This document shows, one piece after another, positions 683 through 16,665 of a DNA stretch of 32,000 bases. The number at the start of each line of letters is the position of its first letter. Within the stretch, counting starts at the first letter, position 1. Made by a program: the position numbers and the translations under genes. The stretch spans positions 150,001 to 182,000 of the forward strand of contig CP178758.1 in the NCBI GenBank assembly GCA_047651235.1. The letters are read 5' to 3'. This DNA is from Candidatus Electrothrix yaqonensis (lineage in GTDB: Bacteria; Desulfobacterota; Desulfobulbia; Desulfobulbales; Desulfobulbaceae). A model generated the notes under the pieces. It did not search any database. It was not told the DNA's origin and saw only the letters and a list, made by a program, of their open reading frames with translations.

Positions 683-2590
683 ATGTTTTTTGCAGATTGG
701 ACCGATATTTCTGTTTTTCCGCGCAGGCTGAAGGCTGCCCTGCTGCTGTTTGCCTTTGCAGCAGGACTATCAGGAGTCGGCGGATGCGTCGGACATACAC
801 CTTCTGCCCGTAAGGGGAAAGGGATAAAGCCTGCATCTTCTGTCAGCAGAAGTAAAGCCGATCAGGCGGTTGATTCTGCTGAGTCGGATTCTGATAAATC
901 TGCACCTGAAATCACCGGAGAGAAAGAAACAGCAGATTACAGCTGCAGTTATTTCCAGTTTCTCCGGGGGCGTCATGCTGAACTGGCCGCAGAATATGAA
1001 GAGGCGCTTGCCTGCTACGAAAAGTCTTTGCGCTGCGACCGGGATGCTGATTTTGTTTTCCGTAAAATCCCTCTGCTCCTCCTCCATCTGAACCGCAGTG
1101 ACGAGGCGGTTTCCAGATTAAAAAAATATTTAACCGATCATCCTGAAGATACGATGTCCAGGCTGCTGCTGGCCAAAATTTTTATCCGTCAGGACGAATT
1201 CGAAAAAGCCGCCCGGCAGTACCGTGAAATTCACGGTCTGCATCCTGATGAGACCGGTTCCCAGATTCTGCTTGCAGAACTTTATCTTGCCGAGAATAAA
1301 ACAGATAAGGCTGAATCAGTCCTGCGGGACATTCTTACTGCGAATGATGACTCCTATCCGGCCCATCTCCTGCTGGCCCGGCTGCTGATTGCGGAAGAAG
1401 ATTTTGCAGCAGGCCGACGGCATTATCAGCAGGCCCTCGATCTTCTCTGGTCTGAAGAGCTGCAGATGGAACTGGCCGAGGTGCTGATCCGGCAAAAAAA
1501 GTATGCCCGCGCAGTTGAAATGTATCAGGAGATCCTGCAGCATGACGAGCTGAACGAGGAGGTCAGAATTTCACTGGTTCAACTGTACCTCCTGCAGGGA
1601 AAAGAAAAAAAGGCCATGGCCGAGCTGAGGCGGCTGAAGAAGAACACGCAGCATCTGGAACAGGTTGAACTGGGCGTTGTCCGGTTGTATATCCGTTGGG
1701 AAAAGTACGACAGGGCCATCCGTCTGCTGGAAAAACTGCTGCAGAGGAAGGAGCTGTCCGGGGCCCGGTATCTGCTTGCCGTGCTCCGTTTTCAGGAAAA
1801 GCAGTATGACGTGGCCTTGCGTGACCTGAAAAAAATCGGTCCGGATGCCGGGGAATATGAAGATGCTGTTTTTCTGCAGGTCCGCACGCTGCAGGAGCTG
1901 GAACGGCATAAGGAGGCTGTCCGGCTTCTGGAGTCGGCTGTTGCCGAAGAAGAAGGACGGACTCCAGATCTGTATGTTCTGCTTGCCGGAATATATGAGT
2001 TTTTAGGCTGGCAGGAGCGCGGCCGGAAAACCTTTCTCCGGGCCTTGAAGGTCTATCCGGAGAATGAGGAGGTGCTGTACGAGTACGGACTGTTTCTCCA
2101 TCATATCGGAGAACAGCCGCAGGCCCTGGAGATCATGCAGCGGATTATTGCCGTACAGCCGGAACATGCAGGTGCGCTGAATTATGTCGGGTACATGTGG
2201 GCGACAAAAAAAATGCATCTGGACAAGGCCCTGCAGTATATCTCCCGCGCTGCACAACTGAAGCCGAAGAACGGTTATATACAAGACAGCCTCGGCTGGG
2301 TGTATTATCAGCAGGGCAAGTTTATCCGGGCTGTCAAGGCGCTGGAGCAGGCCCTGGAGCTGAGCCCTGATGCTCCGATGATCCTTGATCATCTTGCAGA
2401 TGCCTATCTGGCTGCCGGACAGACGGAAAAAGCCCTGGCAATCTGGCGCAGGGCCTTGGAGCTGTACAGGCAAAATACAGATGAGAACGGCAAAGGGGAC
2501 AGCAGTCGGAAAGAAGAAAAAAGCAAAATCGGACAACTGGAGAAAATAGAAAAAAAAATGCGTGGCCTTGAACAGAAGGAGAAAAAGTGA
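683..2590 (+). CDS. TPR-repeat lipoprotein
   Basis: 635-aa ORF. The N-terminal signal peptide ends in a lipobox (LSGVGGC). The body is many degenerate 34-aa TPR-like units (AxxxYxxAL / LGxxYxxxGxxxxA patterns). The C-terminus is Lys/Glu-rich. Confidence 0.85.
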   Translation: MFFADWTDISVFPRRLKAALLLFAFAAGLSGVGGCVGHTPSARKGKGIKPASSVSRSKADQAVDSAESDSDKSAPEITGEKETADYSCSYFQFLRGRHAELAAEYEEALACYEKSLRCDRDADFVFRKIPLLLLHLNRSDEAVSRLKKYLTDHPEDTMSRLLLAKIFIRQDEFEKAARQYREIHGLHPDETGSQILLAELYLAENKTDKAESVLRDILTANDDSYPAHLLLARLLIAEEDFAAGRRHYQQALDLLWSEELQMELAEVLIRQKKYARAVEMYQEILQHDELNEEVRISLVQLYLLQGKEKKAMAELRRLKKNTQHLEQVELGVVRLYIRWEKYDRAIRLLEKLLQRKELSGARYLLAVLRFQEKQYDVALRDLKKIGPDAGEYEDAVFLQVRTLQELERHKEAVRLLESAVAEEEGRTPDLYVLLAGIYEFLGWQERGRKTFLRALKVYPENEEVLYEYGLFLHHIGEQPQALEIMQRIIAVQPEHAGALNYVGYMWATKKMHLDKALQYISRAAQLKPKNGYIQDSLGWVYYQQGKFIRAVKALEQALELSPDAPMILDHLADAYLAAGQTEKALAIWRRALELYRQNTDENGKGDSSRKEEKSKIGQLEKIEKKMRGLEQKEKK

Positions 2591-3441
2591 GATTGATCGG
2601 GCAGGGGATAAAACAGTGGATACTATGGGCTTGTGCGGGACTGCTGCTCCTGAGCGGTTGTGCGGCAACGCCGCCCAAAACCGTAGAGATCAGCGGGGGA
2701 GACCTGCAGCAGGTGGAGGACAGATTGTCCCGTTTTCTGGGTCAATCCTGTGTGAGTTCTGTGGACAGCGATGTGCAGCTCCTGCTGCAGGCGTACGGTC
2801 AGGAGAAGAAACTTTCCGCTGTGATGCAGGCCATGCGGCCGTGTTTTCTCCGTCTTGCCGTGACGGATCCTCTCGGCAGACCGCTGATGATTCTGGGAAC
2901 GGATGAACACAGGTTTACCTTTGCGGATAACAGCGAATCTATCGGGTATACAGGCTCGATGGACCTGGACGTGGTGCATAAATTTCTGCCTGCATTTATT
3001 CCGACCAGGGATGTTTTTTACTGGCTCAGTGGCCGGATCAACGGCATCGGGATGCAGGTGCTGGAAAGCAAAGTGGATGCTGCTGAGGATTCGCTGTACT
3101 GGTATACAGTCGAATACAGCGGTAGCGGTCAGAACGGTCACAATCAGAGTAAGAATGAAGGGATAACCCATATGCTGGCCCTGAACGAAAAGAATCAGCT
3201 GGTCCGTCATCTGGTGCTGGATGCGGAGAAGGATATTCAGTTTGAAGCCAAGTACAGTCAGTATTCCTCAACACCGAAAGCCTGCAGCTGGCCCGGCAGG
3301 ATAGACATTTCAGGCGAGGCATTGGAGTCGGATTTTACTGTGGAGTTTTCCGAGATCTTTGATTTTAACCCGAAGCCGAACAATCATTTTCAGATTAAAC
3401 TGCCGCCGCATTTCACAGTCCGGAAAATCATCAACTCCTGA
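2587..3441 (+). CDS. Outer-membrane-type lipoprotein, possibly LolB/DUF4292-like
   Basis: 284-aa ORF whose GTG start overlaps the upstream stop (GTGA). It has a signal peptide with a lipobox (LLLLSGC). Pairing with a TPR protein is common in Desulfobacterota; the family call is tentative. Confidence 0.75.
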   Translation: MRLIGQGIKQWILWACAGLLLLSGCAATPPKTVEISGGDLQQVEDRLSRFLGQSCVSSVDSDVQLLLQAYGQEKKLSAVMQAMRPCFLRLAVTDPLGRPLMILGTDEHRFTFADNSESIGYTGSMDLDVVHKFLPAFIPTRDVFYWLSGRINGIGMQVLESKVDAAEDSLYWYTVEYSGSGQNGHNQSKNEGITHMLALNEKNQLVRHLVLDAEKDIQFEAKYSQYSSTPKACSWPGRIDISGEALESDFTVEFSEIFDFNPKPNNHFQIKLPPHFTVRKIINS

Positions 3442-3678
3442 ACGGGCAGGTCATCTCTGCTTTCTCTCCTTTCCCGCTGCATTTTCTGAAGGTTCCCTGT
3501 CTCCCTGCCCGGACGGGACAGGGACCTCATGCCGGACGTTCCCGTTGAACCGGCGTTTCCGCTCCTTCCGCTTTTTATCTCTTCCCCCATTTCTGTCTTC
3601 TGTCAGGTGCTGCCGATTGTAAACTTTTGAACCGCAGGCTACCCGGTGAGCAGAACAGTCAGTTTTTATGTGACACGG

Positions 3679-3708
3679 TATCAAATTTATTATACAATTT
3701 TTTATAAT
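3679..3708 (+). promoter_or_regulatory. Candidate sigma70-type promoter for the ATPase operon (-10 only is convincing)
   Basis: A perfect TATAAT lies at 3703-3708 inside an AT-rich stretch about 105 nt upstream of the ATG at 3815. The -35 region is weak (TATCAA). Confidence 0.25.
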
Positions 3709-3814: not shown

Positions 3815-5113
3815 ATGCGTATTGAGGACCCCCGGCCCCGAACAATCAGGGTCGGCTATCGTATACAACTGGAGAGGTGTCAGTCATGGGATGAGAGCTG
3901 TCATATCTTTGATGAAGAATCCGCCTTTGCCGTGGAGATGGCACTGGCCACCGGGCGGCCTCTGCTGATCCGCGGCGAGCCGGGCAGCGGCAAGAGTCAG
4001 CTGGCCCGTGCTGCTGCGCAGGAGCTGAACCGCTGCCTTCTTGCCGAGACTATTACTGCAGCTTCCGAGGGAAGGGATCTGCTCTGGCAGTATGACCCGG
4101 TAGCCCGGCTCAGTGAGGCCCAGGCCGGAGCTGCCGAGTCGGCAATACGACGGCAGCGCAGACTACTTGCCCGTGAAAATGAGGAGATGCTGTCTGCTGC
4201 GGCCGAAAATGACACCGGTCCACAGAACGGCGTAACCAGAAAAAAGAAAGTTCCTAGGTATAAAAAGAAAAAGCCGACCCACCGAAAAGACAGAAGGTTT
4301 TCATCGTTCGCCCGCACGGCAACAGCAGAACCGCTCAGTCGGATTAATTTTCCGGAACGGAAAGAACATATCCTGCGGCCTGCCCAGTACGTCAGTCCGG
4401 GCTTGCTCTGGTGGGCGTTTGACAGTATTTCTGCGTACAGGCAGTATACAACCTGCCGATACCCGTTTTATACCCCCGGTTTTTTATATGAGGACACTGA
4501 TGAGCATGATGCGGCGGAGCGCGGTTTTGTTGTCCTGATTGATGAAATCGACAAGGCTGATTCCTCCCTGCCCAATGCCCTGCTTGAGGTGCTGGGGAAC
4601 GGCGGCTTTTATGTGCCTATGGTTGATGAATCTGTGGGTACGGCATTGGCGCGGAAAAAACCGCTGGTGATCATCACCACCAATGAAGAGCGGGAACTGC
4701 CTCCGGCCTTTGTCCGCCGCTGTCTGGTACTGCATCTCCGTTTTGACGACGAAGAATATCTGCGTTCTTGGTGGCAGCAGCAGGCGGACCGGTCTCCGCA
4801 GCTCTATCCTCTTGATGCATTTGCCCGGGAAGCAGCCCTGATCCGCTGGCTGGCAGAACGGGGGGAAATACATTTTCAGGGGATATTCACTGAGCGGGTC
4901 AGGGAAAGGGCGGCGCTGCTGCTGGTCCGGGATCGGCGGGCGGCGCAGCGTATCGGTGCGGTCCGGCCGGGACAGGCGGAATTTCTTGATCTGTTGCGGG
5001 CCCTGCGCGACATGCCAGGCCCAGACAGTTCCGGCGAGGCCCTGGAGTTGTATCAGCTGGCTCTGCTGAAAAAAATCAGCCGGTATGCTCTGGTCAAATC
5101 CGCTGCAGAATAG
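3815..5113 (+). CDS. AAA+ ATPase, MoxR/AAA_5-like, with a large basic insertion
   Basis: Walker A is GEPGSGKS (3974-3997) and Walker B is VVLIDEIDKAD (D/E at 4541-4546). The AAA_5-like tail reads LPNALLEVL...PLVIITTNEERELPPAFVRRC. About 180 aa separate Walker A from Walker B, including TRKKKVPRYKKKKPTHRKDRR. Confidence 0.85.
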   Translation: MRIEDPRPRTIRVGYRIQLERCQSWDESCHIFDEESAFAVEMALATGRPLLIRGEPGSGKSQLARAAAQELNRCLLAETITAASEGRDLLWQYDPVARLSEAQAGAAESAIRRQRRLLARENEEMLSAAAENDTGPQNGVTRKKKVPRYKKKKPTHRKDRRFSSFARTATAEPLSRINFPERKEHILRPAQYVSPGLLWWAFDSISAYRQYTTCRYPFYTPGFLYEDTDEHDAAERGFVVLIDEIDKADSSLPNALLEVLGNGGFYVPMVDESVGTALARKKPLVIITTNEERELPPAFVRRCLVLHLRFDDEEYLRSWWQQQADRSPQLYPLDAFAREAALIRWLAERGEIHFQGIFTERVRERAALLLVRDRRAAQRIGAVRPGQAEFLDLLRALRDMPGPDSSGEALELYQLALLKKISRYALVKSAAE

Positions 5114-5116
5114 ACC

Positions 5117-7597
5117 ATGAATCGGCTCCGGACACAGGTCAGCAGGGCGGACATCCTGCGTCTGCTTGCAGTGCAGCGGACAGCCTCTGTGGATGCCGCA
5201 GCCCGACTGAGCGGGTATATAGCTGAAAAAATTTCTGAAAAACAACATCGCCCAGCGGGATCGCCGGAACCGATAAAGAATCAAGTTCTCCCGCAGCGCA
5301 GGCCGACAGAAACTGCGGTTGAGGAAGAGCCTGTAGAAACTGAGGAAGTCACCGATTTCCTGCCGCCGGAACGTTTCTGGTCTGTGCATAAACGGCAGCA
5401 GGTTCAGCAATCTGTTTACGGATCAGTTTACAGTATTCCAGCGTGGCAGAAAGAGGTTCCGGGAGATGGTGTCGCCCTGCCGGTTGCCCTGCAGAAGATA
5501 GTCCCTCTGCAGCCTGAGGAGCTGCGCCTTCCTGAATTTATCCCGTGCAGCAGGAGTCAATCAGCAGGCCGGGAACCCTGTTCATTTTCCGGCTCTTTTT
5601 CTGCTCTGCCTGACAGAATCGGGAAGCAGGCCCTTTCCGGTGCAGGCATCAACAGACTGGTCGTTGCGCTGGCCAAGTTCTCCCCTCTGCACCGGCTTTC
5701 CCACCGCAGCAGGGGCCAGTCTGCTGTCCGACAATCTGCTGCAACGTCTTCTGCAGCACAGCCGGAAAAAAAGTTCCGTCTTCATATACGACGCCTGCTG
5801 GGTCTGCTTGCAGTAACCACGTATGCGGATTCCCGGTTATTCTCCGGTATTTTACGTCTTCTGCCTTCTTCATTTCCTGATCTTGAAATAGAAGCGGCTG
5901 TCCGGCTGCACCCTGATGTGCAGTGGAACGAGCGGATGCAGTTTGCCGTCAGACCGGAAAAACTGGCTGCATATCAGCAGGTCTTTGCCGAGGAAGCCCC
6001 TGCGGTGCAGGCCGGAATGGTGGATCTGCTGCGACAGCACCGTTCCGTGGATGCTCCGGCGTTATTTGCTCTGGAGCTGCTGCATCTCTGCCCGCTGTTC
6101 CGCTCGGCAGAGATGATGAAGCGGTATGCGGGCCAGCTGCTGGAGGGGTTTATGCTGCGGGTTGTCCGTACCTGGTTTGCGCGCCCGGAAGACAGCTCCC
6201 TTCTCCGGTATGCCCGTCGCCTTTTCCGGCTTCTGGAGATGCTGCCGGAAACCGTGTGGAAGCAGCGCCCCGGTCCTTCTTTTTTGTACGGTATCGTACA
6301 TCGGGAACGCCTGCGGGCCGGAGCAGTTGTGCCGCCGCAATATGATCCGGAAGCTGTGCTCTGTCCGGTGCGGCAGGTCATTGTCCCGTCTGCCGGATAT
6401 CTGCTCCAGCAGCAGGGAGAGTGTATTTTTTTGTCCCGAATGTCTCCTGCCGGGACAGACCGGGGCCCGGTAAGTCCGCTTGCCGAACTTGTCCTGTCCG
6501 CAGACTGTCTGCTGCTGTATCGGGAAGAGCAGGTTGAAATCCTGCCGGTCCGTTCCGGCAGGCCGATCTTCAACTGCAGCGGTCGGACAGCAGGATTCTG
6601 TCTCCAAACCCCGCTTGAAAAAATATCTGTCCGGACCTGCTTCCGACCTTTCTGGGCCCGGTCCATCGGCCGGAACAGCAGGGGACTGTTCGTTGACGTC
6701 TCCTGGCTTGGTAGAACTGAACGTCTGCTGTGGAAGAATCAGAGCGGAAACAGGGGAAACAGGACAGGCTGCTGGGTCGGGACCGGGAGCACCGGGGGGA
6801 TAGGGACGGATCAGTACGGGCTGTATGCGGATGTTGCGCTTGGTGATCGGGCTATGCAGCGGTTCCGCCGGATAGAGCCGGGCAGATTTATGATGGGCTC
6901 GCCTGCGGACGAGACGGAACGGGAAAGTCTGGGCAGGGAGTCGCTGCATGAGGTCGTTTTAACCAAAGGATTCTGGATGGCAGATACTGCAGTTACCCAG
7001 AAGATGTGGCAGGCCATGATGGGGGAAAATCCCGCCTGCTTTCAGGGCGACAGCCTGCCGGTGGAAAATGTGAGCCGTCACGATGCGCTGCGGTTTGTAC
7101 GCCGACTGAACAGACTGATTCCCGGGATTGTAGCGCGCCTGCCCACGGAAGCGGAATGGGAATACTGCTGCCGGGCCGGTACTTCCACCCCTTTTTTTTT
7201 CGGAGAACAGATCAGCCCGCAACAGGTGAATTATAAGAACAAGCAGCATCCCCGGCAGGATACGTCCCGTCCGGGAACATCCGGAAATAACAGCAGAGGA
7301 ACTGTGGCGGTGCAATCGCTGCCCTGCAATGCTTGGGGGCTGTACGAAATGCACGGTAATGTCTGGGAATGGTGTCAGGATTACTGGCAGGACGACCTTG
7401 CTGCTGATGAACCTGTGATTGATCCCCAAGGACCGGCAATGGGAGAGTTCTGCGTTGTACGCGGCGGTTCCTGGTTTCTTGGCAGCCGCGGGGTCCGTTC
7501 GGCTGTCCGGGGAAAATTTGCGCCGCATTTCAGTAACAACCGCATCGGTTTCCGGCTTGTCCTGAACTTAGAGCAGGGAGAGGAACGTGTACCGTAA
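5117..7597 (+). CDS. Large uncharacterised protein with a C-terminal FGE/SUMF1-type (C-type-lectin-fold) domain
   Basis: 826-aa ORF starting 3 nt after the ATPase stop. The C-terminal ~255 aa (about 6800-7570) carry FGE-sulfatase signatures: RFRRIEPGRFMMGSP, LPTEAEWEYCCRAG, NAWGLYEMHGNVWEWCQD, VVRGGSW, IGFRLV. I recognise no family in the N-terminal ~560 aa. Confidence 0.85.
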   Translation: MNRLRTQVSRADILRLLAVQRTASVDAAARLSGYIAEKISEKQHRPAGSPEPIKNQVLPQRRPTETAVEEEPVETEEVTDFLPPERFWSVHKRQQVQQSVYGSVYSIPAWQKEVPGDGVALPVALQKIVPLQPEELRLPEFIPCSRSQSAGREPCSFSGSFSALPDRIGKQALSGAGINRLVVALAKFSPLHRLSHRSRGQSAVRQSAATSSAAQPEKKFRLHIRRLLGLLAVTTYADSRLFSGILRLLPSSFPDLEIEAAVRLHPDVQWNERMQFAVRPEKLAAYQQVFAEEAPAVQAGMVDLLRQHRSVDAPALFALELLHLCPLFRSAEMMKRYAGQLLEGFMLRVVRTWFARPEDSSLLRYARRLFRLLEMLPETVWKQRPGPSFLYGIVHRERLRAGAVVPPQYDPEAVLCPVRQVIVPSAGYLLQQQGECIFLSRMSPAGTDRGPVSPLAELVLSADCLLLYREEQVEILPVRSGRPIFNCSGRTAGFCLQTPLEKISVRTCFRPFWARSIGRNSRGLFVDVSWLGRTERLLWKNQSGNRGNRTGCWVGTGSTGGIGTDQYGLYADVALGDRAMQRFRRIEPGRFMMGSPADETERESLGRESLHEVVLTKGFWMADTAVTQKMWQAMMGENPACFQGDSLPVENVSRHDALRFVRRLNRLIPGIVARLPTEAEWEYCCRAGTSTPFFFGEQISPQQVNYKNKQHPRQDTSRPGTSGNNSRGTVAVQSLPCNAWGLYEMHGNVWEWCQDYWQDDLAADEPVIDPQGPAMGEFCVVRGGSWFLGSRGVRSAVRGKFAPHFSNNRIGFRLVLNLEQGEERVP

Positions 7598-8417
7598 TCA
7601 TCTCTCGCCACCGCAGTTCCCTGCGCCGTGGGCTGCTGACTGGGGAGAGGATAACTACGGTCTGTGGATGACCTGTGCTCTGCACAGGGCGCGCCAGATC
7701 TTCCGCTGGATCAGGCCGGGAACCTTCATGATGGGCGCAGCAGCGGAGAAAGGCGGCCGGAGTCCCTGGCTTGGGCGGGTAACGCAGCACCGGGTGACCC
7801 TGTCCAAAGGTTTTTGGCTGGCCGACACAGCGGTTACTCAGGAGATGTGGACTGCAGCGATGGGTGAAAATCCGGCCTGTTTTACAGGTGCTGGCCTGCC
7901 TGTTGAACGGGTGAGCTGGCATGATGCGCAGGCCTTTATTCGGCAGCTGAATACCCTGCTTCCCGGTTTCAGAGCACGGTTACCCTTTGAGGCGGAATGG
8001 GAGTATGCCTGCCGGGCCGGAACAGCAACCCCTTTTTCGTTCGGCAATGAGGTCACGCCGGAGCAGGTTAATTATAACGGCAGATATCCCTGCAGCCGGG
8101 AGAGCCAGGGTGGTTCCGGGGTTCCCGGGCTGTACCGCCGGGAAACAGTACCGGTGAAAAGCCTACCCTGTAATTCCTGGGGCATGTACGAAATGCACGG
8201 CAATGTCCGGGAATGGTGCCAAGATTGCTGGCAGCCTGACCTGACTGCAGACCCTGCGGTTGATCCGCAGGGCCCGGTCAGGGGCTATGCCCGTCTGGTC
8301 CGGGGCGGTTCATGGGCTGATGATGCTTGGTCTGCCCGTTCCGCCTGCCGGGAAAGCTGCAGTCCCGATTTCCGCTCAGCAGGTATCGGTTTGCGGCTGG
8401 CAGTGAATTGCTTGTAA
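7587..8417 (+). CDS. Stand-alone FGE/SUMF1-type (C-type-lectin-fold) domain protein, paralog of the upstream C-terminus
   Basis: 276-aa ORF overlapping the upstream gene by 11 nt. It carries the same motif series: FRWIRPGTFMMG, LPFEAEWEYACRAG, NSWGMYEMHGNVREWCQD, LVRGGSW, IGLRLA. Confidence 0.85.
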   Translation: MYRNHLSPPQFPAPWAADWGEDNYGLWMTCALHRARQIFRWIRPGTFMMGAAAEKGGRSPWLGRVTQHRVTLSKGFWLADTAVTQEMWTAAMGENPACFTGAGLPVERVSWHDAQAFIRQLNTLLPGFRARLPFEAEWEYACRAGTATPFSFGNEVTPEQVNYNGRYPCSRESQGGSGVPGLYRRETVPVKSLPCNSWGMYEMHGNVREWCQDCWQPDLTADPAVDPQGPVRGYARLVRGGSWADDAWSARSACRESCSPDFRSAGIGLRLAVNCL

Positions 8418-8444
8418 AGAGGTTTGTAAAGCGAAGACTGCCGG

Positions 8445-8477
8445 AACAACGATTTCGGAGTATCGGGTTGTTTTATT
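8445..8477 (+). terminator. Candidate Rho-independent terminator of the ATPase/FGE operon
   Basis: AACAACGAT (8445-8453) pairs with ATCG-G-GTTGTT (8462-8472, one bulged G) and is followed by TTATT. It lies 28 nt after the stop at 8417. Confidence 0.45.
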
Positions 8478-8888
8478 CTATGCAGCGGTAGCGTAACAAC
8501 CGTAAGAAGAAATCCAGAATTTGCTTTTATGCTGGCCTGTGGCGCCGCAGATGGAACAACGGATATCCTGCGGATTTTCTTGAGCAACAAATTGTGTATT
8601 GAGCAGATTGTGCAGGACAAGAGGCTTGGCATAAGCGCCATCGACCAGGGCTGTGAATACGATATCATATATGGTCATCTTTCTTCCGCAGGAACATATG
8701 CAGGCATCGGATTCAAAAAAATAAGCTTGGCTGCTCAACGTGCCGGGCTGAACATCAAGCAGGTGTTCTGTTGCCTCGATATCGCTGTCCTGTACCCGGA
8801 CGATTCTTGCCTCTTCTCCGTCGTCCAGAAACCTCAGGCCGTCAAACCCCTCTTCCGTCATTGATTTTACAAGATAATAATAGCTCAT
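8478..8888 (-). CDS. Hypothetical Cys-rich protein (possible zinc-ribbon: CICSCG ... CSICG)
   Basis: 136-aa ORF in an AT-richer stretch. It has two Cys clusters (DACICSCGRK and RCSICGATG) and is coupled to the upstream ORF by an ATGA overlap. I recognise no family. Confidence 0.55.
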   Translation of the reverse strand: MSYYYLVKSMTEEGFDGLRFLDDGEEARIVRVQDSDIEATEHLLDVQPGTLSSQAYFFESDACICSCGRKMTIYDIVFTALVDGAYAKPLVLHNLLNTQFVAQENPQDIRCSICGATGQHKSKFWISSYGCYATAA

Positions 8889-9106: not shown

Positions 9107-9490
9107 ATCATCAGTGGCAACAGGTATTTTTTATCCGTTTCAGGAATGGCTTCCGGGTATTTTTTATTCAGTCCGCAGAGTTATAGGAATAATAGAGGAG
9201 ATCACGCTCCCTTGCTGAATCCCGCCGGCATGACCGGGTAATTTTTATCCGGTTTCAACAGTATATTCGGATAGTTTTTATTCACTTTGGCGGAGCTGCA
9301 GGCAATGCCCGGCGGGTTCAACTTTCCATCTTTTGCCGGTAAAGCGCTTCACCTGCGCATAACAACTTATTGTTAATAAATATTATCTTTAACATGCAAT
9401 ATATTGTCCCCGGACTTTTCTGCGGCTCTTCAGCGGATTTATTCGAAGCAGCATTATGGTCGAAAATACAGTCTGTTCTGCAGCGGAAAC

Positions 9491-9527: not shown

Positions 9528-9672
9528 ACATAAGGCGAAGCTTATTCATCAGCGGGTGCCTCACTTTCTGGTCAGAACCGGAAAGTTGATCAAGCCACAA
9601 CCGTCGTGAGACGGTGCCGGAAAGCCAAGGGTCTCAGGGGAGACAGCCGGGTTGCCTACTTTTTTCTCTACC
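9528..9672 (+). promoter_or_regulatory. Structured 5' leader (unclassified; possible riboswitch or attenuator)
   Basis: Three hairpins are present. H1 is 9564-9572/9577-9585 (9 bp, loop CAGA). H2 is 9600-9605/9610-9615 (6 bp, GNRA loop GTGA). H3 is 9631-9635/9640-9644. Direct repeats are CCGGAAAG (9578-9585, 9617-9624) and GGTGCC (9555-9560, 9613-9618). A T6 run lies at 9660-9665 just before AGGAGG (9673-9678). Confidence 0.35.
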
Positions 9673-9686
9673 AGGAGGTATATGTC

Positions 9687-9914
9687 ATGAGAGCCGCAGA
9701 ACAGGCCGTCAGTCAGAATTCACTTCTTCTGGCAGGATTATTTCCTGTCTCCTTGCCTTTCCCGTTTGCCGCGCTGGCAGCAGCAATGCAGAATGCGTAT
9801 CGCGCAGCAGCTTTCTCCCCTGCCGGAAAACTGCGTGCAGCAGCATTTTCCTTTGTCATCGGACGGCTCCGAGCCGGGTTCCGCTCGCATCCCAAGTTTC
9901 TCCTGTTTTTCTGA
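9687..9914 (+). CDS. Possible small ORF (75 aa, Ala/Phe-rich, hydrophobic)
   Basis: AGGAGG (9673-9678) lies 8 nt upstream of the in-frame ATG at 9687. The product is MRAAEQAVSQNSLLLAGLFPVSLPFPFAALAAAM.... The region has competing overlapping frames, so its coding status is uncertain. Confidence 0.3.
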   Translation: MRAAEQAVSQNSLLLAGLFPVSLPFPFAALAAAMQNAYRAAAFSPAGKLRAAAFSFVIGRLRAGFRSHPKFLLFF

Positions 9915-9995: not shown

Positions 9996-10730
9996 ATGAC
10001 AACGGAAACCATGACAAAGGAGACGGAGAAAGTGTATACAATTAATTTTGATTTCAGGAACAGAGAGCAGAGAAGAATCCTTGAGTATATGCAGCAGAGA
10101 GGCTATAAACTGCTGGGCTTCAAAGGGGCTGAAGGGGACTGCCGGACCGCCGGGCTGCCGGTATGGTTTTCCGTGCCGTATATCAAAATGCGCGGTGAAG
10201 TATGCAATGAATACAAGCCGCTGTATAAGGTGTATTATATGAATTCGTCTGTTCAGTCCGACGTAACCATCCGGATGGATGCCCTGTCCGAAAAAATTCG
10301 GCTCGGCGCACGGGTAACCCTGCATGTGGACGGCACCTTTTCTGTTGAATACGGCGGGCCGAAGAATGAGATTCTTTTTGTCAACGACAGACCGGTTGAC
10401 ACCGGCAGGATTACTGCCGGGCTGGCTGCTCTTGTTAATGGAGAGTATTCTCCTTTCTGCGCATTTGATGTCGGCCCGCACAGATCGCTGCGCATGAAGC
10501 CCAACGAAAAAGTTTCTCTCTTTGCCGTACCGACTATCATGCGAACAGGCTCACTTGCAGATGAGGCCGTGTCCTCCGGCTGCCTGTTTGACCTGATGAA
10601 TCCGGACTGCCATCGTATTGATCTGGAAATGGATGAAAACTGCAACGAGTTCAATCCGGTTGCCTGCGGCGTGCCTATGCGGCGGATCAATTCCGGCCAG
10701 CCGCTCATGCCGCTGATGGCTTCCTGCTGA
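9996..10730 (+). CDS. Hypothetical protein (244 aa), no recognisable family
   Basis: GGGAGG lies 8 nt upstream of the ATG. It is a clean 244-aa ORF followed by a strong terminator. The sequence is Cys-containing and has no signal peptide or TM segment. Confidence 0.75.
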   Translation: MTTETMTKETEKVYTINFDFRNREQRRILEYMQQRGYKLLGFKGAEGDCRTAGLPVWFSVPYIKMRGEVCNEYKPLYKVYYMNSSVQSDVTIRMDALSEKIRLGARVTLHVDGTFSVEYGGPKNEILFVNDRPVDTGRITAGLAALVNGEYSPFCAFDVGPHRSLRMKPNEKVSLFAVPTIMRTGSLADEAVSSGCLFDLMNPDCHRIDLEMDENCNEFNPVACGVPMRRINSGQPLMPLMASC

Positions 10731-12953: not shown

Positions 12954-14675
12954 ATGTTAATTAGCTACATTATTATTGCATTCATATCTTTTCTGCTCTC
13001 CGTTGTAATTCTCTTGATTTTTTTAAAGAAAAAATCAAGGGAGCATGACTCTGTCGTCAGAAATTTCGAGCAAAAAATTGAGATACTTGTTGATGAGCAA
13101 CAAACTTTGTCACAGCAAAATGTTGCACTACAGGAGGAGAGAAAAAGGTTACGAACGACAGTTCAAGCTTTATCACGCTACAAAGGTATTGTTAAAATAG
13201 ATGAGGTAATAGCTCAAAAGAAAAGACACTTTTTAGAAGAACGAAATAAGGCTCTTGAAAAACTCAATCAGCAGATAAGAGAAACCAAGAAAAAGATTAA
13301 AACGGCTACCCAAGAATCACTGAGGCGAGAAGGTATTGTTAATAGATCAATAGAAGCAAAAGAGAAGAAAGTAAAGAGCACTATACAGCAAGCAGAGGAA
13401 CAAATTCTCCAACAAAAAAACGATACAAAACAAACCATAAAGGAGATGTATAAAGAAGCCAAAAAGAAGCATGAGGAAATCTTTATGTCTTCTTCCGCGG
13501 ATGCCTCAGAAATAATTGCTCGCGCAGAACAACAAGCAAAAGAAATAGCCGGAGACGCATTAAAAGCTGTAGCTCACGAAAAGGAACTTGAAAAGGCCAT
13601 CAAGGCTATGAGGAATACCATTAAAGGATATGGTGAGGAGTATCTTATTTCAAGCGACAACTTCCTTGATGAACTGGCAGATGAGTATAATTTTAAAAAG
13701 GCTGGTCAGGAACTTAAAAAGGTTCGAGAAAGCATCAGGCTCATGATTAAAAACGAGACTGCTGCTGATTGTGATTATGTGGAAGTCAACCGGAGGAACT
13801 ACGCCATCCATTTTGTACTTGACGCTTTCAATGGAAAGGTCGATTCGATTTTGTCAAAAGTGCGCCATGATAACTATGGAAAACTACAACAGCAAATTCT
13901 TGATGCTTTTAATCTGGTTAACCACAATGGTTCGGCATTCAGGTCAGCCAGAATCAACCAACCATATCTTGATCTCAGGATGGAAGAGTTAAAATGGGCC
14001 GTTGCCGTTCACGAATTGAAGGTGCAAGATAGGGAAGAACAAAAAAGAATCAAGCAGGAAATGAGAGAAGAGGTCAAAGCCAAAAAAGAGTATGAAAAGG
14101 CCATCAAAGAGGCAGAAAAAGAGGAAAAAATATTGCAAAAAGCTATGGAGCAGGCAAGGAAAGAGCTTTTAAGCGCTACAGATGCGCAGCGTGAGGAATA
14201 TGAAGCGCGGTTAAAAGATCTGGAAGAAAAAATCCATGAAGCTGAAGAAAAAAATCAAAGAGCAATCTCTATGGCTCAGCAAACAAAAAGGGGCCATGTC
14301 TATGTCATTTCCAACATTGGCTCTTTTGGTGATAATGTCTTGAAAATTGGCCTTACAAGACGACTGGAACCTATGGACCGGGTAAAAGAACTCGGTGATG
14401 CAAGCGTTCCGTTTCCTTTTGATGTCCATGCAATGATGTTTAGTGAAGATGCTCCTGCTCTGGAGAAGGAATTGCACCAGACATTCAATAACTACCAAGT
14501 AAACAAGGTTAATCAACGAAAAGAATTTTTTCAGATAAAGGTTGCCGATGTTAAAGAGGCTGCGGCAGGGCTCGGAATTGAAACCCATTGGACGATGAAA
14601 GCCGAAGCAAGAGAATATCGCGAGTCGATCATCTTGGCTCAATCGGAAAAGAATAGATCTGCTGTACCCGTATAA
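12954..14675 (+). CDS. Membrane-anchored coiled-coil protein with DUF4041-like region and C-terminal T5orf172/MUG113 (GIY-YIG-like) domain
   Basis: 573 aa. The N-terminal TM helix is ISYIIIAFISFLLSVVILLIFL, followed by long Lys/Glu-rich heptad-like stretches. The DUF4041-like core reads FVLDAFNGKVDSILSKVRHDNYGKL...YLDLRMEELKW. The C-terminus reads GHVYVISNIGSFGDNVLKIGLTRRLEPMDRVKELGDASVPFPFDVHAMMFSEDAPALEKELH. The gene is markedly AT-rich. Confidence 0.85.
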   Translation: MLISYIIIAFISFLLSVVILLIFLKKKSREHDSVVRNFEQKIEILVDEQQTLSQQNVALQEERKRLRTTVQALSRYKGIVKIDEVIAQKKRHFLEERNKALEKLNQQIRETKKKIKTATQESLRREGIVNRSIEAKEKKVKSTIQQAEEQILQQKNDTKQTIKEMYKEAKKKHEEIFMSSSADASEIIARAEQQAKEIAGDALKAVAHEKELEKAIKAMRNTIKGYGEEYLISSDNFLDELADEYNFKKAGQELKKVRESIRLMIKNETAADCDYVEVNRRNYAIHFVLDAFNGKVDSILSKVRHDNYGKLQQQILDAFNLVNHNGSAFRSARINQPYLDLRMEELKWAVAVHELKVQDREEQKRIKQEMREEVKAKKEYEKAIKEAEKEEKILQKAMEQARKELLSATDAQREEYEARLKDLEEKIHEAEEKNQRAISMAQQTKRGHVYVISNIGSFGDNVLKIGLTRRLEPMDRVKELGDASVPFPFDVHAMMFSEDAPALEKELHQTFNNYQVNKVNQRKEFFQIKVADVKEAAAGLGIETHWTMKAEAREYRESIILAQSEKNRSAVPV

Positions 14676-14721
14676 CCAAGGCGAAAAGTATGCTCAACGC
14701 TGGATATCCTGCAAAGCGACT

Positions 14722-14877
14722 GACTTGTCCGACGGGCTATGGAGCAAGATTTTCAATACCGCCAGCGTAATCAGCGCAATGGAAGCAATCTCCGGTACGC
14801 CATTTCAGTACAAGGACGACATGGTTCAATCTATGCGGTATCACTCGAAAAAATACGCAAAAGCATCTTTGTTTTAA
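14722..14877 (+). pseudogene. mntA-like (MNT nucleotidyltransferase antitoxin) 3' remnant
   Basis: The frame reads ...KIFNTASVISAMEAISGTPFQYKDDMVQSMRYH.... The intact MntA at 17102..17485 reads ...MNLNTAGTISAMEAISGTPLF[18 aa]QYEDDMAQLRRHY. The DNA differs mostly at third codon positions. There is no start codon and no N-terminal half. Confidence 0.6.
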
Positions 14878-14895
14878 ACATATTATTCCGTAGTT

Positions 14896-16665
14896 ATGCC
14901 CAAACCATCGCAATATATTCCAGTCCTGATTGCCCTGCTCTGTGTCTGCGGTATTATCGGGTACCTCGTGTACCAAGAACAGAACACGGAACGGCCGGAT
15001 CAGATCGAGGTGACCACAGCCGGTTTTCTGGAGATGTGCCTGTCCTGCCATAAGGACGAAAAGCCGGACCCGGCCCATGCGGCCCAGATGATCGGCTGCT
15101 CGCCCTGTCATCTCGGTAATGCCAAGGCTATTACTAAAGAAAAAGCCCATGAGGGTATGGTTGTCAACCCCGGTGACCTGCGGGTGGCGGAAAAAACCTG
15201 CGGTACCAAGGGCTGTCATCCGGCGGATGTGCAGAAAGTCAAGAATTCGCTCATGGCCACCAACCGGGGCATCCTGTCCACTCTGCTCTATTACTGGGGG
15301 GAGCGGGATACTCAGGATGCGGAAATCACGGTGGAGCAGCTGCTGAATTCCGGCGAGACCTCGCTGGCCCTGGATTATTTCCGTAAACTCTGCGCCACCT
15401 GTCACCTCTGGAAGCAGAAAAACGATCTGCCGGGCTACCCGAAATTTTTTAATGAAAAAGGCGGCGGCTGTTCAGCCTGTCATTATATCCCGGCCGAGGG
15501 AGATAAGCGCACCACCGTGGCTTCATTTGAAGAGGACAGCAGCGGCAAGCCGGAGAAAAAACCGCATCCGCTGATCAGCAAAAAAGTGCCGGACGAAAAC
15601 TGCATCCGCTGTCATAACCGTTCCGGCCGGATCGGCATTTCGTATACCGGAAAATTTGAGGCTGAGGGCTACGGTACGCCCTATGAGAAGGGGCAGCATT
15701 CCTCACACCGCCTGCCCGGCAACCGATTTTATCTGGAAATTGCTGAGGATGTGCATCATACAAAGGACATGTCCTGCATTGACTGCCACACCCGTGAGGA
15801 AATCATGGGTGACGGCACCCAGTATGCCCATTATGAAGAGCAACTGGAGATCAGCTGCACAGGCTGTCATTCCGGAAAACCCGGCCTGACCCGCAAGAAC
15901 CGGAAGATCACCAATATCAAGAAGGAAGAGAACGGCTTTATCCTGACCGGCCGCAATAACGGCAGGGTTTATCCTCTGAACCCGCCGAAAAAGAATGTCT
16001 GCACCTATCCGGGCCACAAACGGATGACCTGCGAAGCCTGCCATTCCACTTGGGTGCCCCAGTGCTACGGCTGCCACGCCAAGCGCGATGCCCGCGACAC
16101 CCATCTGGATAAACTCACCATAAAGGAGACCGAGGGCTGGTGGGAGGAAGGCCGTTCGTACCTCCGCTATGAGCAGCCCATGTTAGGGGTCTGGGGCGAC
16201 AAGGTGGTGATTGTGACGCCGGGCTGTCAGGATATCGTAACCCTGATTGATGAAGACGGAAATATTGATAAAGAGGGCAGCTTCAACCGATTCACTATGG
16301 CTGCGATCAATCCGCATACCACCCAGGCCAAAGGGAGGCCCTGCAAGGACTGCCACAGCTCGCCCAAGACCGTCGGTCTCGGTGAGGGCACGGTGGTGAA
16401 AAAGGACGGCAAGTGGGAGTTCCATCCGGTCGGGCAGGGAGTAGATACCCTCAAAGGCAGAACTGTGCCGCTGGACGCCTTTGTCACCATTGACGGCAAA
16501 CAGCTTCAGCACGGCTCCCGTGCCGATCTGCGGCCCTTTAATGCGGAAGAGCTCTGGCGCATCCTGCGGGTCGGGCTCTGCCTGCCCTGCCATACAGACT
16601 ACAATGATCCGGCCTACCGGAATTACGATCCCCAACGCCCCTGCCCGGAATATCAGGAACCGTAA
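14896..16665 (+). CDS. Membrane-anchored multiheme c-type cytochrome (11 CxxCH + 1 CX4CH)
   Basis: 589 aa. The N-terminal anchor is IPVLIALLCVCGIIGYLVY. Heme motifs are CLSCH, CSPCH, CATCH, CSACH, CIRCH, CIDCH, CTGCH, CEACH, CYGCH, CKDCH and CLPCH, plus CGTKGCH (15199-15219). Confidence 0.9.
   Translation: MPKPSQYIPVLIALLCVCGIIGYLVYQEQNTERPDQIEVTTAGFLEMCLSCHKDEKPDPAHAAQMIGCSPCHLGNAKAITKEKAHEGMVVNPGDLRVAEKTCGTKGCHPADVQKVKNSLMATNRGILSTLLYYWGERDTQDAEITVEQLLNSGETSLALDYFRKLCATCHLWKQKNDLPGYPKFFNEKGGGCSACHYIPAEGDKRTTVASFEEDSSGKPEKKPHPLISKKVPDENCIRCHNRSGRIGISYTGKFEAEGYGTPYEKGQHSSHRLPGNRFYLEIAEDVHHTKDMSCIDCHTREEIMGDGTQYAHYEEQLEISCTGCHSGKPGLTRKNRKITNIKKEENGFILTGRNNGRVYPLNPPKKNVCTYPGHKRMTCEACHSTWVPQCYGCHAKRDARDTHLDKLTIKETEGWWEEGRSYLRYEQPMLGVWGDKVVIVTPGCQDIVTLIDEDGNIDKEGSFNRFTMAAINPHTTQAKGRPCKDCHSSPKTVGLGEGTVVKKDGKWEFHPVGQGVDTLKGRTVPLDAFVTIDGKQLQHGSRADLRPFNAEELWRILRVGLCLPCHTDYNDPAYRNYDPQRPCPEYQEP

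What the first reader, a model, noticed from the sequence alone, without database searches (positions are those of the whole stretch)
3815..8417. AAA+ ATPase + 826-aa orphan protein ending in an FGE/C-type-lectin-fold module + stand-alone FGE paralog: candidate NTPase-driven conflict (defence/sensing) operon
Seen in the sequence: three co-directional genes are packed with a 3-nt gap and an 11-nt overlap. An AT-rich upstream region carries a perfect TATAAT, and a hairpin terminator follows the last gene. Gene 1 has clear Walker A/B and an AAA_5/MoxR-like core. Genes 2 and 3 carry the full FGE-sulfatase (SUMF1/EgtB/PvdO) motif series. No sulfatase, ergothioneine or pyoverdine gene is nearby that would explain an enzymatic FGE role. 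I see no vWA/MIDAS (DxSxS) partner, so this is not the classical MoxR-vWA pair. Established knowledge: the FGE domain has a C-type-lectin-like fold that is widely reused as a ligand-binding module. To my recollection, comparative-genomic surveys of NTP-dependent conflict systems in multicellular or filamentous prokaryotes list FGE-type modules among variable sensor/effector ends. Inference: an ATPase-gated sensing or abortive-infection type system, with the FGE modules as recognition heads and the 560-aa region as adaptor or effector.
Basis: partly seen in the sequence, partly recalled or inferred. Interest (0 to 1): 0.75.

Follow-up and report, generated by a model that had tools for sequence, protein, structure and literature searches.

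The report
Stripped-down MoxR immune-sensor operon
This three-gene operon of a cable bacterium is a conserved, cut-down descendant of a predicted bacterial immune-sensor system: it keeps the ATPase and two lectin-fold binding proteins, but it has lost the killing enzyme, the adaptor domain and the mutator that its relatives carry.

Summary
The three genes are real. The window comes from Candidatus Electrothrix sp. YB6. Gene 1 (3815-5113) is an intact MoxR/AAA_5 ATPase. Gene 2 (5117-7597) and gene 3 (7587-8417) end in FGE/C-type-lectin-fold domains that lack both catalytic cysteines, so they are binding modules and not formylglycine enzymes.

The 826-aa protein is not an orphan. Its central module defines a family of about 177 clusters. 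The order ATPase, then large FGE-ending protein, then small FGE protein recurs in 19 loci from five phyla. In those loci the large protein also carries a divergent vWA-like domain. A gene abutting the ATPase upstream carries variable TIR, trypsin, SEFIR or nucleosidase heads. Several loci hold a diversity-generating retroelement whose variable region is the C-terminal end of the FGE domain. This matches the MoxR-vWA "ternary conflict systems" predicted by Kaur et al. 2020 and Doré et al. 2024.

The cable-bacterial ATPases nest inside that clade (bootstrap 99-100). Their operons have lost the effector gene, the vWA domain and the retroelement. The ATPase has gained a lysine/arginine-rich insert. 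The triad is inherited vertically and is under purifying selection (dN/dS 0.07-0.21). The former variable region is now the most conserved part of gene 2.

Verdict: a new reduced variant of a known, predicted kind. Its function is probably fixed-ligand sensing or sequestration, not abortive infection.

The parts
3670..3708 (+). Promoter-like elements in the AT-rich spacer: GTGACA-17 nt-TACAAT (3670-3698) and TATAAT (3703-3708).
   Evidence: The count of such sites is not above the shuffled expectation, so this is suggestive only. A terminator-like hairpin at 3444-3462 follows the upstream gene, which fits a separate transcription unit.
3815..5113 (+). Gene 1: MoxR-type AAA+ ATPase, 432 aa.
   Evidence: AAA_5 E 1.7e-13. 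Walker A, Walker B, sensor-1 N290 and R301/R302 are invariant across 11 homologs. dN/dS is 0.074. Homologs are 55-68% identical in Electrothrix and Electronema and about 41% identical in other phyla.
3974..3997 (+). Walker A, GEPGSGKS (residues 54-61, K60).
4124..4372 (+). Insert of about 83 aa, rich in Lys and Arg (residues about 104-186, with the motif RKKKVPRYKKKK). It is full length only in cable bacteria and sits between the conserved DPVARL..AQ segment and the SPGxLWW segment.
   Evidence: Alignment A4. It is absent from the ~320-aa homologs of Methylomonas, Uabimicrobium and others; the sister-clade homolog P0063 and Oceanospirillum P0083 carry shorter inserts at the same site. A second insert (residues about 315-341, nt 4757-4837) is shared with the sister homolog P0063.
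4529..4555 (+). Walker B, VVLIDEIDK (residues 239-247).
5117..7597 (+). Gene 2: 826-aa adaptor/sensor protein (conserved N-terminal helices, degenerate linker, MID module, FGE-fold domain).
5117..5236 (+). Conserved N-terminal helical segment (residues 1-40), shared with the full-length family.
   Evidence: HMM hit of 3e-11 in the window, and hits in most relatives. Two helices, 10-19 and 25-31, in the AF2 model.
5237..5761 (+). Mostly low-confidence, fast-evolving linker (residues 41-215). Its C-terminal part (about 140-219) occupies the place of the vWA-like domain of relatives.
   Evidence: pLDDT is below 50 for 40-80, 144-176 and 188-211. dN/dS is 0.37. BLASTP against the L089 protein aligns its residues 1-135 with 1-139 here, and 343-940 with 220-824. 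Residues 136-342 of L089, the vWA-like domain, have no counterpart here.
5762..6766 (+). MID module (residues 216-550): a helical domain (214-418) followed by a beta-rich domain (421-540). This is the family-defining core.
   Evidence: AF2 block-mean pLDDT is mostly 82-97 over residues 221-540, with one block at 71. 177 clusters in the representative search. HMM E 1e-81. No Pfam family.
6794..7564 (+). FGE-sulfatase / C-type-lectin-fold domain of gene 2 (residues 560-816), non-catalytic.
   Evidence: PF03781 E 2e-43. In the alignment to human FGE, L replaces C336 and C341 falls in a gap.
7451..7564 (+). Segment equivalent to the DGR variable region (residues 779-816). It is frozen here.
   Evidence: It is homologous to the VR of L089 (6135-6262), where 16 of 21 TR/VR mismatches have A in the TR. 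Mean entropy is 0.31 bits among 10 Electrothrix orthologs, against 0.63 for the rest of the domain. In non-cable relatives the values are 1.85 against 1.63.
7587..8417 (+). Gene 3: stand-alone, non-catalytic FGE/C-type-lectin-fold protein, 276 aa.
   Evidence: PF03781 E 4e-43. The best PDB sequence match is the DGR variable protein TvpA, 2y3c, at 1.1e-23. A and S replace the catalytic cysteines. Orthologs follow gene-2 homologs in all loci examined. dN/dS is 0.134.
8426..8476 (+). Hairpin followed by UUUUAUU after gene 3; a possible terminator.
   Evidence: Minimum free energy -12.8 kcal/mol, z -0.25 against shuffles. Not flagged by the scan. Weak evidence.

Best explanation
The operon is a vertically inherited, streamlined derivative of a MoxR-vWA "ternary" conflict system whose sensors are FGE/C-type-lectin-fold proteins that are often diversified by a retroelement (DGR).

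Shown:
- The ancestor-like relatives encode, in this order: an effector protein with a variable TIR, trypsin, SEFIR or nucleosidase head; the MoxR ATPase; a protein with N-terminal helices, a divergent vWA-like domain, the MID module and an FGE-fold domain; and a second FGE-fold protein. Some also carry HRDC and a reverse transcriptase that mutagenise the C-terminal face of the FGE-fold domain.
- The cable-bacterial lineage lost the effector gene, the vWA-like domain and the DGR. It kept an intact ATPase, the N-terminal helices, MID and both lectin-fold proteins, all under purifying selection. It also gained a Lys/Arg-rich insert in the ATPase.

Inferred:
- The ATPase ring uses ATP to remodel a cytoplasmic complex of genes 2 and 3.
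- The two lectin-fold domains bind one fixed ligand through the now invariant former variable surface.
- The output is ligand sequestration or a conformational signal, not effector-mediated cell death.

The evolutionary identity is well supported (about 0.85). The mechanism is a reasoned guess.
For: Identity and distribution:
- The window is Electrothrix sp. YB6; only ten gene-2 homologs were found by word search, most named Electrothrix and the rest unnamed metagenome sequences.
- The triad is syntenic in E. sp. Rat3 and E. communis with the same downstream neighbours, and in Electronema.
- ATPase homologs occur in at least 18 named cable-bacterial assemblies.

The wider family:
- 19 loci from Gamma- and Betaproteobacteria, Acidobacteriota, Verrucomicrobiota, Planctomycetota and Myxococcota show the order ATPase, vWA-like-MID-FGE protein, FGE protein.
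- All 15 non-cable loci examined for it have an abutting upstream gene. Of these, 5 carry TIR_2 and 4 carry Trypsin_2; single cases carry SEFIR, PNP_UDP_1, DUF676 or TCAD9. PADLOC matches the heads to LmuA, bSEFIR, ThsB and PN effector families.
- The vWA-like domain is a confident alpha/beta fold in AF2 (block-mean pLDDT mostly above 90 over residues 101-310 of P0139). It has invariant Asp at the ends of two strands (D69 and D137 in the motif LSDLG). It gives sub-threshold VWA_CoxE hits (E 0.02 and 0.0014).
- DGR: L089 has HRDC and RVT_1 between the two FGE genes, with a TR/VR pair showing adenine-specific mismatches. RT homologs are also in L010, L022 and L031, with HRDC homologs in L010 and L022.

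The cable-bacterial version:
- The cable ATPases are nested within complete systems in a neighbour-joining tree (bootstrap 99, 100 and 100 of 100).
- No RT, HRDC or TR is present in the window.
- The catalytic cysteines are absent.
- dN/dS is 0.074 for gene 1, 0.206 for gene 2 and 0.134 for gene 3, against 0.22 for neighbouring cobD and cutA.
- The former variable region is frozen.
Against: - No experiment exists for any member, including the parent family. The literature found is computational only.
- The vWA assignment rests on sub-threshold Pfam hits and fold topology. I could not run a structure search on the isolated domain.
- Only 32 kb of the genome was available. An unlinked effector or a DGR acting in trans elsewhere in the chromosome cannot be excluded.
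- Physical contacts between the ATPase, gene 2 and gene 3 were not modelled.
- The ligand is unknown.
- The role of the Lys/Arg-rich insert is unknown.
Confidence: 0.55

Rival explanations
1. It is still a working anti-phage or abortive-infection system. The lectin-fold heads sense an invader, the ATPase relays the signal, and the effector is encoded elsewhere in the genome or resides in the MID module.
For: - It is homologous to predicted conflict systems with TIR or protease effectors.
- Kaur et al. describe unlinked effectors recruited through adaptor domains, and FGS domains as possible "neutralising" binders.
- Cable bacteria are multicellular filaments, the habit with which these systems are associated.
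Against: - No effector gene flanks the triad in five cable-bacterial loci with three different upstream contexts.
- No EAD or other adaptor Pfam domain is present in genes 1-3.
- There is no PADLOC match.
- The locus is conserved and vertically inherited, not in a variable island.
- The recognition surface is the most conserved part of gene 2, and dN/dS is at or below that of housekeeping neighbours. This is the opposite of the rapid evolution reported for vWA and VMAP components.
Confidence: 0.25
2. It is an enzymatic FGE-family pathway: sulfatase maturation, thiohistidine (EgtB/OvoA-like) synthesis or PvdO-like chemistry, assisted by a chaperone ATPase.
For: - Strong PF03781 matches and weak NCBIfam hits to PvdO, EgtB, SenA and OvoA.
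- One related locus (L090) has a PF00884 sulfatase gene 3 kb upstream.
Against: - Both copper-binding catalytic cysteines of FGE are absent from genes 2 and 3.
- All NCBIfam hits are far below their cut-offs (72-84 bits against 360-500).
- There is no DinB-like N-terminal domain as in EgtB and OvoA.
- No sulfatase or pathway gene lies in the window or in the other cable-bacterial loci.
- The best sequence match of gene 3, and the best structural match of a full-length homolog of gene 2, is the non-enzymatic DGR variable protein TvpA.
Confidence: 0.04
3. It is a decaying remnant of a defence system with no current function.
For: Three components have been lost (effector gene, vWA-like domain, DGR). 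A low-confidence, fast-evolving linker now sits where the vWA-like domain was.
Against: - The ORFs are intact in Electrothrix and Electronema, two genera.
- All ATPase catalytic motifs are invariant.
- dN/dS is 0.07-0.21, equal to or lower than cobD and cutA.
- The MID and FGE domains fold confidently.
Confidence: 0.05

Closest known systems
MoxR-vWA-centric ternary conflict systems, VMAP and iSTAND types (Kaur, Burroughs, Iyer and Aravind, eLife 2020, PMC7159879)
   Same: - A MoxR-type AAA+ ATPase is followed by a large protein ending in an FGS (FGE-fold) domain.
- In full-length relatives the gene order is third component, then MoxR, then vWA component.
- The third component has variable TIR or trypsin heads with Trypco1/Trypco2 neighbours.
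- The vWA is CoxE-like with N-terminal helices. FGS is the commonest effector of the iSTAND type, and that type is concentrated in proteobacteria.
   Different: - The Electrothrix operon has no vWA domain and no third component.
- Pfam VMAP and TCAD models do not match the core proteins. Only one upstream protein of a relative hits TCAD9.
- I could not decide whether the relatives' third component is VMAP-like or iSTAND-like.
- The MID module has no Pfam family.
- Evolution is slow, not rapid.
DGR-linked MoxR loci of multicellular bacteria (Doré et al., PNAS 2024; Thiohalocapsa PB-PSB1 DGR8/DGR9 and RT clade 5A)
   Same: - A MoxR-like ATPase lies immediately upstream of a C-type-lectin-fold DGR target whose N-terminal extension has no recognised domain.
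- A trypsin gene lies upstream in DGR9, and there are additional stand-alone lectin-fold targets.
- The sister locus L089 has exactly this layout, with HRDC, RT and an A-biased TR/VR pair.
   Different: The window has no RT, HRDC or TR, and the region equivalent to the VR is invariant among orthologs.
Treponema denticola TvpA (PDB 2y3c), a DGR variable protein with an FGE-type C-type-lectin fold
   Same: - It is the best PDB sequence match of gene 3 (E 1.1e-23).
- It is the best Foldseek match of the full-length homolog model (E 5.7e-17, TM 0.73 over the target).
- It is non-enzymatic, and its ligand-binding surface is formed by the C-terminal segment.
   Different: TvpA is a lipoprotein diversified by a DGR. 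Genes 2 and 3 show no obvious signal peptide or hydrophobic N-terminal stretch by eye (no predictor was run) and are not diversified.
Formylglycine-generating enzyme (SUMF1/FGE)
   Same: The fold is shared, and so are most structural motifs (RGGSW, GNVWEW, the WEYACR-like motif).
   Different: The catalytic cysteine pair is absent and there is no sulfatase partner.
Classical MoxR-vWA chaperone pairs (RavA-ViaA, CbbQ-CbbO, NorQ-NorD; from general knowledge)
   Same: An AAA_5/MoxR ATPase is translationally coupled to its client or adaptor gene.
   Different: The Electrothrix partner has no vWA/MIDAS domain, and no metalloenzyme client is in the neighbourhood.

Membership tests
MoxR-vWA ternary conflict system (VMAP/iSTAND, Kaur et al. 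2020) | MoxR-type AAA+ ATPase | tested here: met
   AAA_5 E 1.7e-13 and intact catalytic motifs. Some homologs carry precomputed PF20030 bpMoxR hits.
MoxR-vWA ternary conflict system (VMAP/iSTAND, Kaur et al. 2020) | vWA co-chaperone domain: a six-stranded Rossmannoid fold with conserved Asp at the ends of strands 1 and 4 | tested here: not met
   - It is absent from gene 2: no vWA-like HMM hit, and the segment is missing in the alignment with L089.
- A divergent version is present in non-cable relatives: invariant D69 and D137, and VWA_CoxE hits at E 0.02 and 0.0014.
MoxR-vWA ternary conflict system (VMAP/iSTAND, Kaur et al. 2020) | A third core component (VMAP or iSTAND protein with an N-terminal effector or EAD) encoded immediately upstream of MoxR | tested here: not met
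   - In the window a 373-nt spacer and an unrelated lipoprotein-like gene lie upstream.
- It is absent in the Rat3, communis, Electronema and L090 loci.
- It is present in 15 of 15 non-cable loci examined.
MoxR-vWA ternary conflict system (VMAP/iSTAND, Kaur et al. 2020) | Variable C-terminal effector or sensor on the vWA component (FGS is common) | tested here: met
   An FGE-sulfatase domain is present in 48 of 50 family members. Rare members carry TIR_2, CHAT or NB-ARC-TPR instead.
MoxR-vWA ternary conflict system (VMAP/iSTAND, Kaur et al. 2020) | Rapid evolution of the non-ATPase components relative to housekeeping genes | tested here: not met
   dN/dS is 0.21 for gene 2 and 0.13 for gene 3, against 0.22 for cobD and cutA.
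DGR target (variable C-type-lectin-fold protein) | C-type-lectin/FGE fold with a C-terminal variable region | tested here: met
   The fold is met. The segment homologous to the VR of L089 was identified.
DGR target (variable C-type-lectin-fold protein) | A cognate reverse transcriptase and a template repeat with adenine-specific mismatches | tested here: not met
   - No RT or HRDC homolog occurs among the window ORFs.
- The only repeats are the gene 2/gene 3 paralogy, with no adenine bias.
- The rest of the genome could not be tested.
DGR target (variable C-type-lectin-fold protein) | Hypervariability of the VR among close relatives | tested here: not met
   The VR-equivalent segment is the most conserved part of gene 2 (0.31 bits).
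Formylglycine-generating enzyme | Catalytic cysteine pair (human C336/C341) that binds copper | tested here: not met
   Gene 2 has L at the first position and a gap at the second. Gene 3 has A and S.
Formylglycine-generating enzyme | Association with a sulfatase substrate gene | tested here: not met
   There is none in the window. Only L090 has one nearby.
EgtB/OvoA sulfoxide synthases | N-terminal DinB-like iron-binding domain fused to the FGE-like domain, scoring above the NCBIfam cut-off | tested here: not met
   No DinB Pfam hit. The NCBIfam EgtB score is 47 bits against a cut-off of 360, and OvoA scores 25 against 400.
Known defence systems in PADLOC-DB v2.0 | A match of the core proteins to a system model | tested here: not met
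   Gene 1 gives only weak, partial local hits, mostly around the P-loop. Genes 2 and 3 give none. The same holds for the Methylomonas core proteins.
MadB family AAA-type ATPase (NCBIfam NF047784) | A score above the curated cut-off of 475 bits | tested here: not met
   76 bits for gene 1 and 66-128 bits for relatives. It is a remote relative only.

The most novel reading that the evidence does not exclude
The triad is a domesticated immune sensor. After losing its effector, vWA adaptor and mutator in the stem lineage of cable bacteria, the MoxR ATPase (now with a Lys/Arg-rich insert) and the two fixed-specificity lectin-fold proteins were recruited to recognise a conserved self or environmental ligand. 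The purpose would be something specific to the filamentous, electrically conductive lifestyle, for example filament integrity or kin sensing, or the handling of an abundant cytoplasmic polymer.
Probability: 0.3. Interest if true: 0.7.

Novelty: new variant of a known kind. Interest (0 to 1): 0.45.

Why it matters
The parent systems are among the most elaborate predicted immune devices of multicellular bacteria, and none has been tested. A naturally minimised version with three genes, no toxin and no mutator, conserved in the cable-bacterial genomes and MAGs examined here, has two uses.

First, it is a tractable core for asking what the MoxR ATPase does to the lectin-fold sensor proteins.

Second, it is a candidate example of an immune sensor whose hypervariable site became fixed. 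That would bear on how defence parts are recycled into cell biology in multicellular prokaryotes.

For genome annotation, it shows that "formylglycine-generating enzyme family protein" is a misleading name for these proteins.

Tried and rejected
- **Profile word search.** The third word-indexed search (alignment A2) returned only the same ten Electrothrix proteins. The full-scan representative search was needed to reach the family.
- **vWA-like domain against the PDB.** A profile of this domain against PDB sequences gave nothing below E 0.7.
- **Effector C-terminal region.** jackhmmer with the C-terminal half of the Methylomonas effector protein found no relatives among the fetched loci. I therefore could not define or classify (VMAP-C or iSTAND) the conserved part of the third component.
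- **MadB lead.** The NCBIfam hit is a remote similarity far below the cut-off. No literature connects MadB with MoxR.
- **Enzymatic FGE, EgtB or PvdO role.** Rejected on the missing catalytic residues and sub-threshold scores.
- **DGR within the window.** Rejected: there is no RT, HRDC or TR, and the gene 2/gene 3 repeats show no adenine bias.
- **Literature.** Searches for cable bacteria together with formylglycine, MoxR or DGR found nothing relevant.
Full report
**1. The observation**

ORF listing confirms three co-directional genes: gene 1 at 3815-5113 (432 aa), gene 2 at 5117-7597 (826 aa) and gene 3 at 7587-8417 (276 aa, GTG start). They are separated by a 3-nt gap and an 11-nt overlap.
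- Gene 1 matches Pfam AAA_5 (E 1.7e-13).
- Genes 2 and 3 match PF03781 FGE-sulfatase over nearly the whole model (E 2e-43 and 4e-43).
- TATAAT is at 3703-3708. A second promoter-like pair, GTGACA-17-TACAAT, lies at 3670-3698. Such sites are no more frequent than in shuffled sequence.
- The hairpin after gene 3 exists but folds no better than shuffles (z -0.25).
- No sulfatase, EgtB/OvoA or pyoverdine gene is in the window. The neighbours are a TPR protein, a lipoprotein-like ORF, CutA1, CobD, a T5orf172 protein, a multihaem cytochrome, GlnD, GlnA and IleRS.

**2. Source and conservation**

The window is from Candidatus Electrothrix sp. YB6, a cable bacterium (100% match).

The triad is syntenic in E. 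sp. Rat3 and E. communis, with the same downstream genes but different upstream genes. It is also syntenic in Electronema aureum and a related MAG, in other contexts. ATPase homologs of 55-68% identity occur in at least 18 named cable-bacterial assemblies.

For the unsaturated Rat3-communis pair, dN/dS is:

| Gene or region | dN/dS |
|---|---|
| gene 1 | 0.074 |
| gene 2, whole | 0.206 |
| gene 2, linker | 0.37 |
| gene 2, MID | 0.19 |
| gene 2, FGE | 0.12 |
| gene 3 | 0.134 |
| cobD and cutA (neighbours) | 0.22 |

These are maintained genes, not a decaying relic.

**3. The FGE domains are not enzymes**

Residue-level alignments to human and Streptomyces FGE show that both catalytic cysteines are missing. 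Gene 2 has Leu at the first position and a gap at the second. Gene 3 has Ala and Ser.

NCBIfam hits to PvdO, EgtB, SenA, OvoA and GldK are all far below their cut-offs. The best PDB sequence match of gene 3 is TvpA (2y3c), a DGR-diversified binding protein. The best structural match of the full-length homolog model is the same entry.

**4. Gene 2 is not an orphan**

The AF2 model of gene 2 (mean pLDDT 79) shows four parts:
- two short N-terminal helices;
- a mostly low-confidence stretch, residues 41-215;
- a confident helical domain (214-418) plus a beta-rich domain (421-540), here called MID;
- the FGE fold.

A profile of the Electrothrix N-terminal 560 residues, run against 1.8 billion cluster representatives, finds 177 clusters at E<=1e-3. 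Most are 900-1000 aa, and they match from MID onwards. Of 50 members scanned, 48 end in FGE-sulfatase, and rare ones carry TIR_2. In Streptomyces, MID instead precedes CHAT or TIR-NB-ARC-TPR.

**5. Synteny beyond cable bacteria**

The ATPase family extends to ~320-aa homologs of about 41% identity. Custom HMMs were run on all fetched loci. They show the order ATPase, then a protein with N-terminal helices, vWA-like domain, MID and FGE, then a stand-alone FGE protein. This holds in 19 loci from Gamma- and Betaproteobacteria, Acidobacteriota, Verrucomicrobiota, Planctomycetota and Myxococcota.

All 15 non-cable loci examined for it have a further gene abutting the ATPase upstream. Its N-terminal head varies: TIR_2 in 5, Trypsin_2 in 4, and single cases of SEFIR, PNP_UDP_1, DUF676 and TCAD9. 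PADLOC relates these heads to LmuA, bSEFIR, ThsB and a PN-superfamily effector model. Trypco1 or Trypco2 genes accompany the trypsin versions.

**6. The lost adaptor**

The extra ~200-aa module of the relatives (residues 115-312 of P0139) is a confident alpha/beta domain (block-mean pLDDT mostly above 90). It has invariant aspartates ending two strands: D69, and D137 within the motif LSDLG. Members give sub-threshold hits to VWA_CoxE (E 0.02 and 0.0014).

This fits the vWA definition used by Kaur et al., a Rossmannoid fold with Asp at the ends of strands 1 and 4, though the DxSxS motif is not kept. The assignment is an inference. A profile search of PDB sequences found nothing, and the domain could not be fold-searched alone.

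Gene 2 lacks this module. BLASTP against the 940-aa protein of L089 aligns its residues 1-135 with 1-139 of gene 2, and 343-940 with 220-824. Electronema proteins (670 aa) also lack part of MID.

**7. The lost mutator**

L089 holds the closest non-cable ATPase (48% identity). Its gene order is Trypco1, Trypsin_2, ATPase, 940-aa FGE protein, HRDC, RVT_1, FGE protein.

A 128-nt repeat links the 3' end of the large gene (6135-6262) with a copy after the RT (7878-8005). Of 21 mismatches, 16 have A in the second copy, which is the DGR signature. RT homologs also lie in L010, L022 and L031, with HRDC homologs in L010 and L022.

The window has no RT, HRDC or TR. The gene 2/gene 3 repeats are ordinary paralogy.

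The segment of gene 2 equivalent to the VR (residues 779-816) is its most conserved part among ten Electrothrix orthologs: 0.31 bits, against 0.63 for the rest of the domain. In non-cable relatives it is more variable than the rest of the domain (1.85 against 1.63 bits).

**8. Direction of change**

A neighbour-joining tree of the ATPases gives these bootstrap values, out of 100:
- cable-bacterial clade: 99;
- that clade plus L089: 100;
- that group plus the Methylomonas and Oceanospirillum trypsin/Trypco2 systems: 100.

The reduced triad is therefore derived from a complete system. The cable ATPases also gained a Lys/Arg-rich insert of about 83 aa (residues about 104-186, with RKKKVPRYKKKK-like motifs). 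A second insert is shared with the L089 homolog. All catalytic residues stay invariant.

**9. Comparison with what is known**

The complete relatives match the MoxR-vWA ternary conflict systems predicted by Kaur et al. 2020. The matching features are the gene order (third component, MoxR, vWA component), the variable TIR or trypsin heads with Trypco partners, the FGS domains and the DGR linkage. The CoxE-like vWA and the proteobacterial bias resemble their iSTAND type.

They also match the loci of Doré et al. 2024, in which a MoxR-like ATPase precedes a DGR target with an uncharacterised N-terminal extension.

No PADLOC model covers the core proteins. I found no experimental study of these systems and no paper linking them to cable bacteria.

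The Electrothrix operon fails three defining features of the ternary systems: the vWA domain, the third component and rapid evolution. It also fails two defining features of DGR targets. I therefore file it as a reduced variant and not as a member.

**10. How it probably works**

Shown: an intact ATPase is translationally coupled to two non-catalytic lectin-fold proteins. All three are constrained, and the former variable surface is fixed.

Inferred:
- The ATPase remodels a complex of genes 2 and 3, perhaps through the conserved N-terminal helices and MID.
- The complex binds one constant ligand.
- Without an effector, the output is sequestration or a conformational signal.

Rivals are a still-active defence system with an unlinked effector (0.25), an enzymatic FGE role (0.04) and a dead remnant (0.05).

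The most novel reading that the evidence allows is domestication for a function specific to cable bacteria (0.3).

Noticed in passing
window 9584-9659 (+): A c-di-GMP-I riboswitch aptamer (RF01051, 54 bits against a gathering score of 35). It lies upstream of a small ORF (about 9687-9914) and a 244-aa ORF with no Pfam family (9996-10730). A similarly placed 237-aa gene with no Pfam family, probably its ortholog, lies in the other Electrothrix loci.
   Followed up: partly
window 20069-20151 (+): A match to the C4 antisense RNA family (RF01695, 54.5 bits against a gathering score of 45) at the 5' end of a BcrAD_BadFG-type ATPase ORF (20047-20799). This is an unexpected place for a phage-type antisense RNA.
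   Followed up: no
window 12954-14675 (+), within the low-GC stretch 13000-15000: A 573-aa protein with T5orf172/MUG113 and DUF4041 domains sits in a stretch of 38-43% GC, against about 52-57% in the adjacent 1-kb bins. It is probably a mobile or defence-related insertion next to cobD.
   Followed up: no
window 14896-16665 (+): A 589-aa protein with cytochrome c7/c3-type multihaem matches. It may be relevant to electron transport in cable bacteria.
   Followed up: no
window 9120-9290: Four copies of a GGTA(T/A)TTTTTAT(C/T)C-like motif, spaced about 35-80 nt apart, in the 1.1-kb intergenic region upstream of the riboswitch. Seen by eye only.
   Followed up: no
window 683-3441 compared with L001 and L003 upstream flanks: The flank upstream of the triad differs between YB6 (a TPR protein and a lipoprotein-like ORF) and Rat3/communis (thiamine biosynthesis genes). 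The downstream flank is shared: a DUF8243-like ORF at 8478-8888 on the minus strand, the 244-aa ORF, CutA1 and CobD. A rearrangement breakpoint therefore lies at the operon's 5' edge.
   Followed up: partly
L024 and L029 (Streptomyces): Here the vWA-like domain is a separate ~320-340-aa protein after the ATPase. MID forms the N-terminus of 1300-aa proteins ending in CHAT or TIR-NB-ARC-TPR. MID therefore behaves as a portable adaptor that is not tied to FGE domains.
   Followed up: partly
window 19409-19492: A 42-nt tandem duplication (83% identity) inside a 162-aa minus-strand ORF (19336-19824).
   Followed up: no
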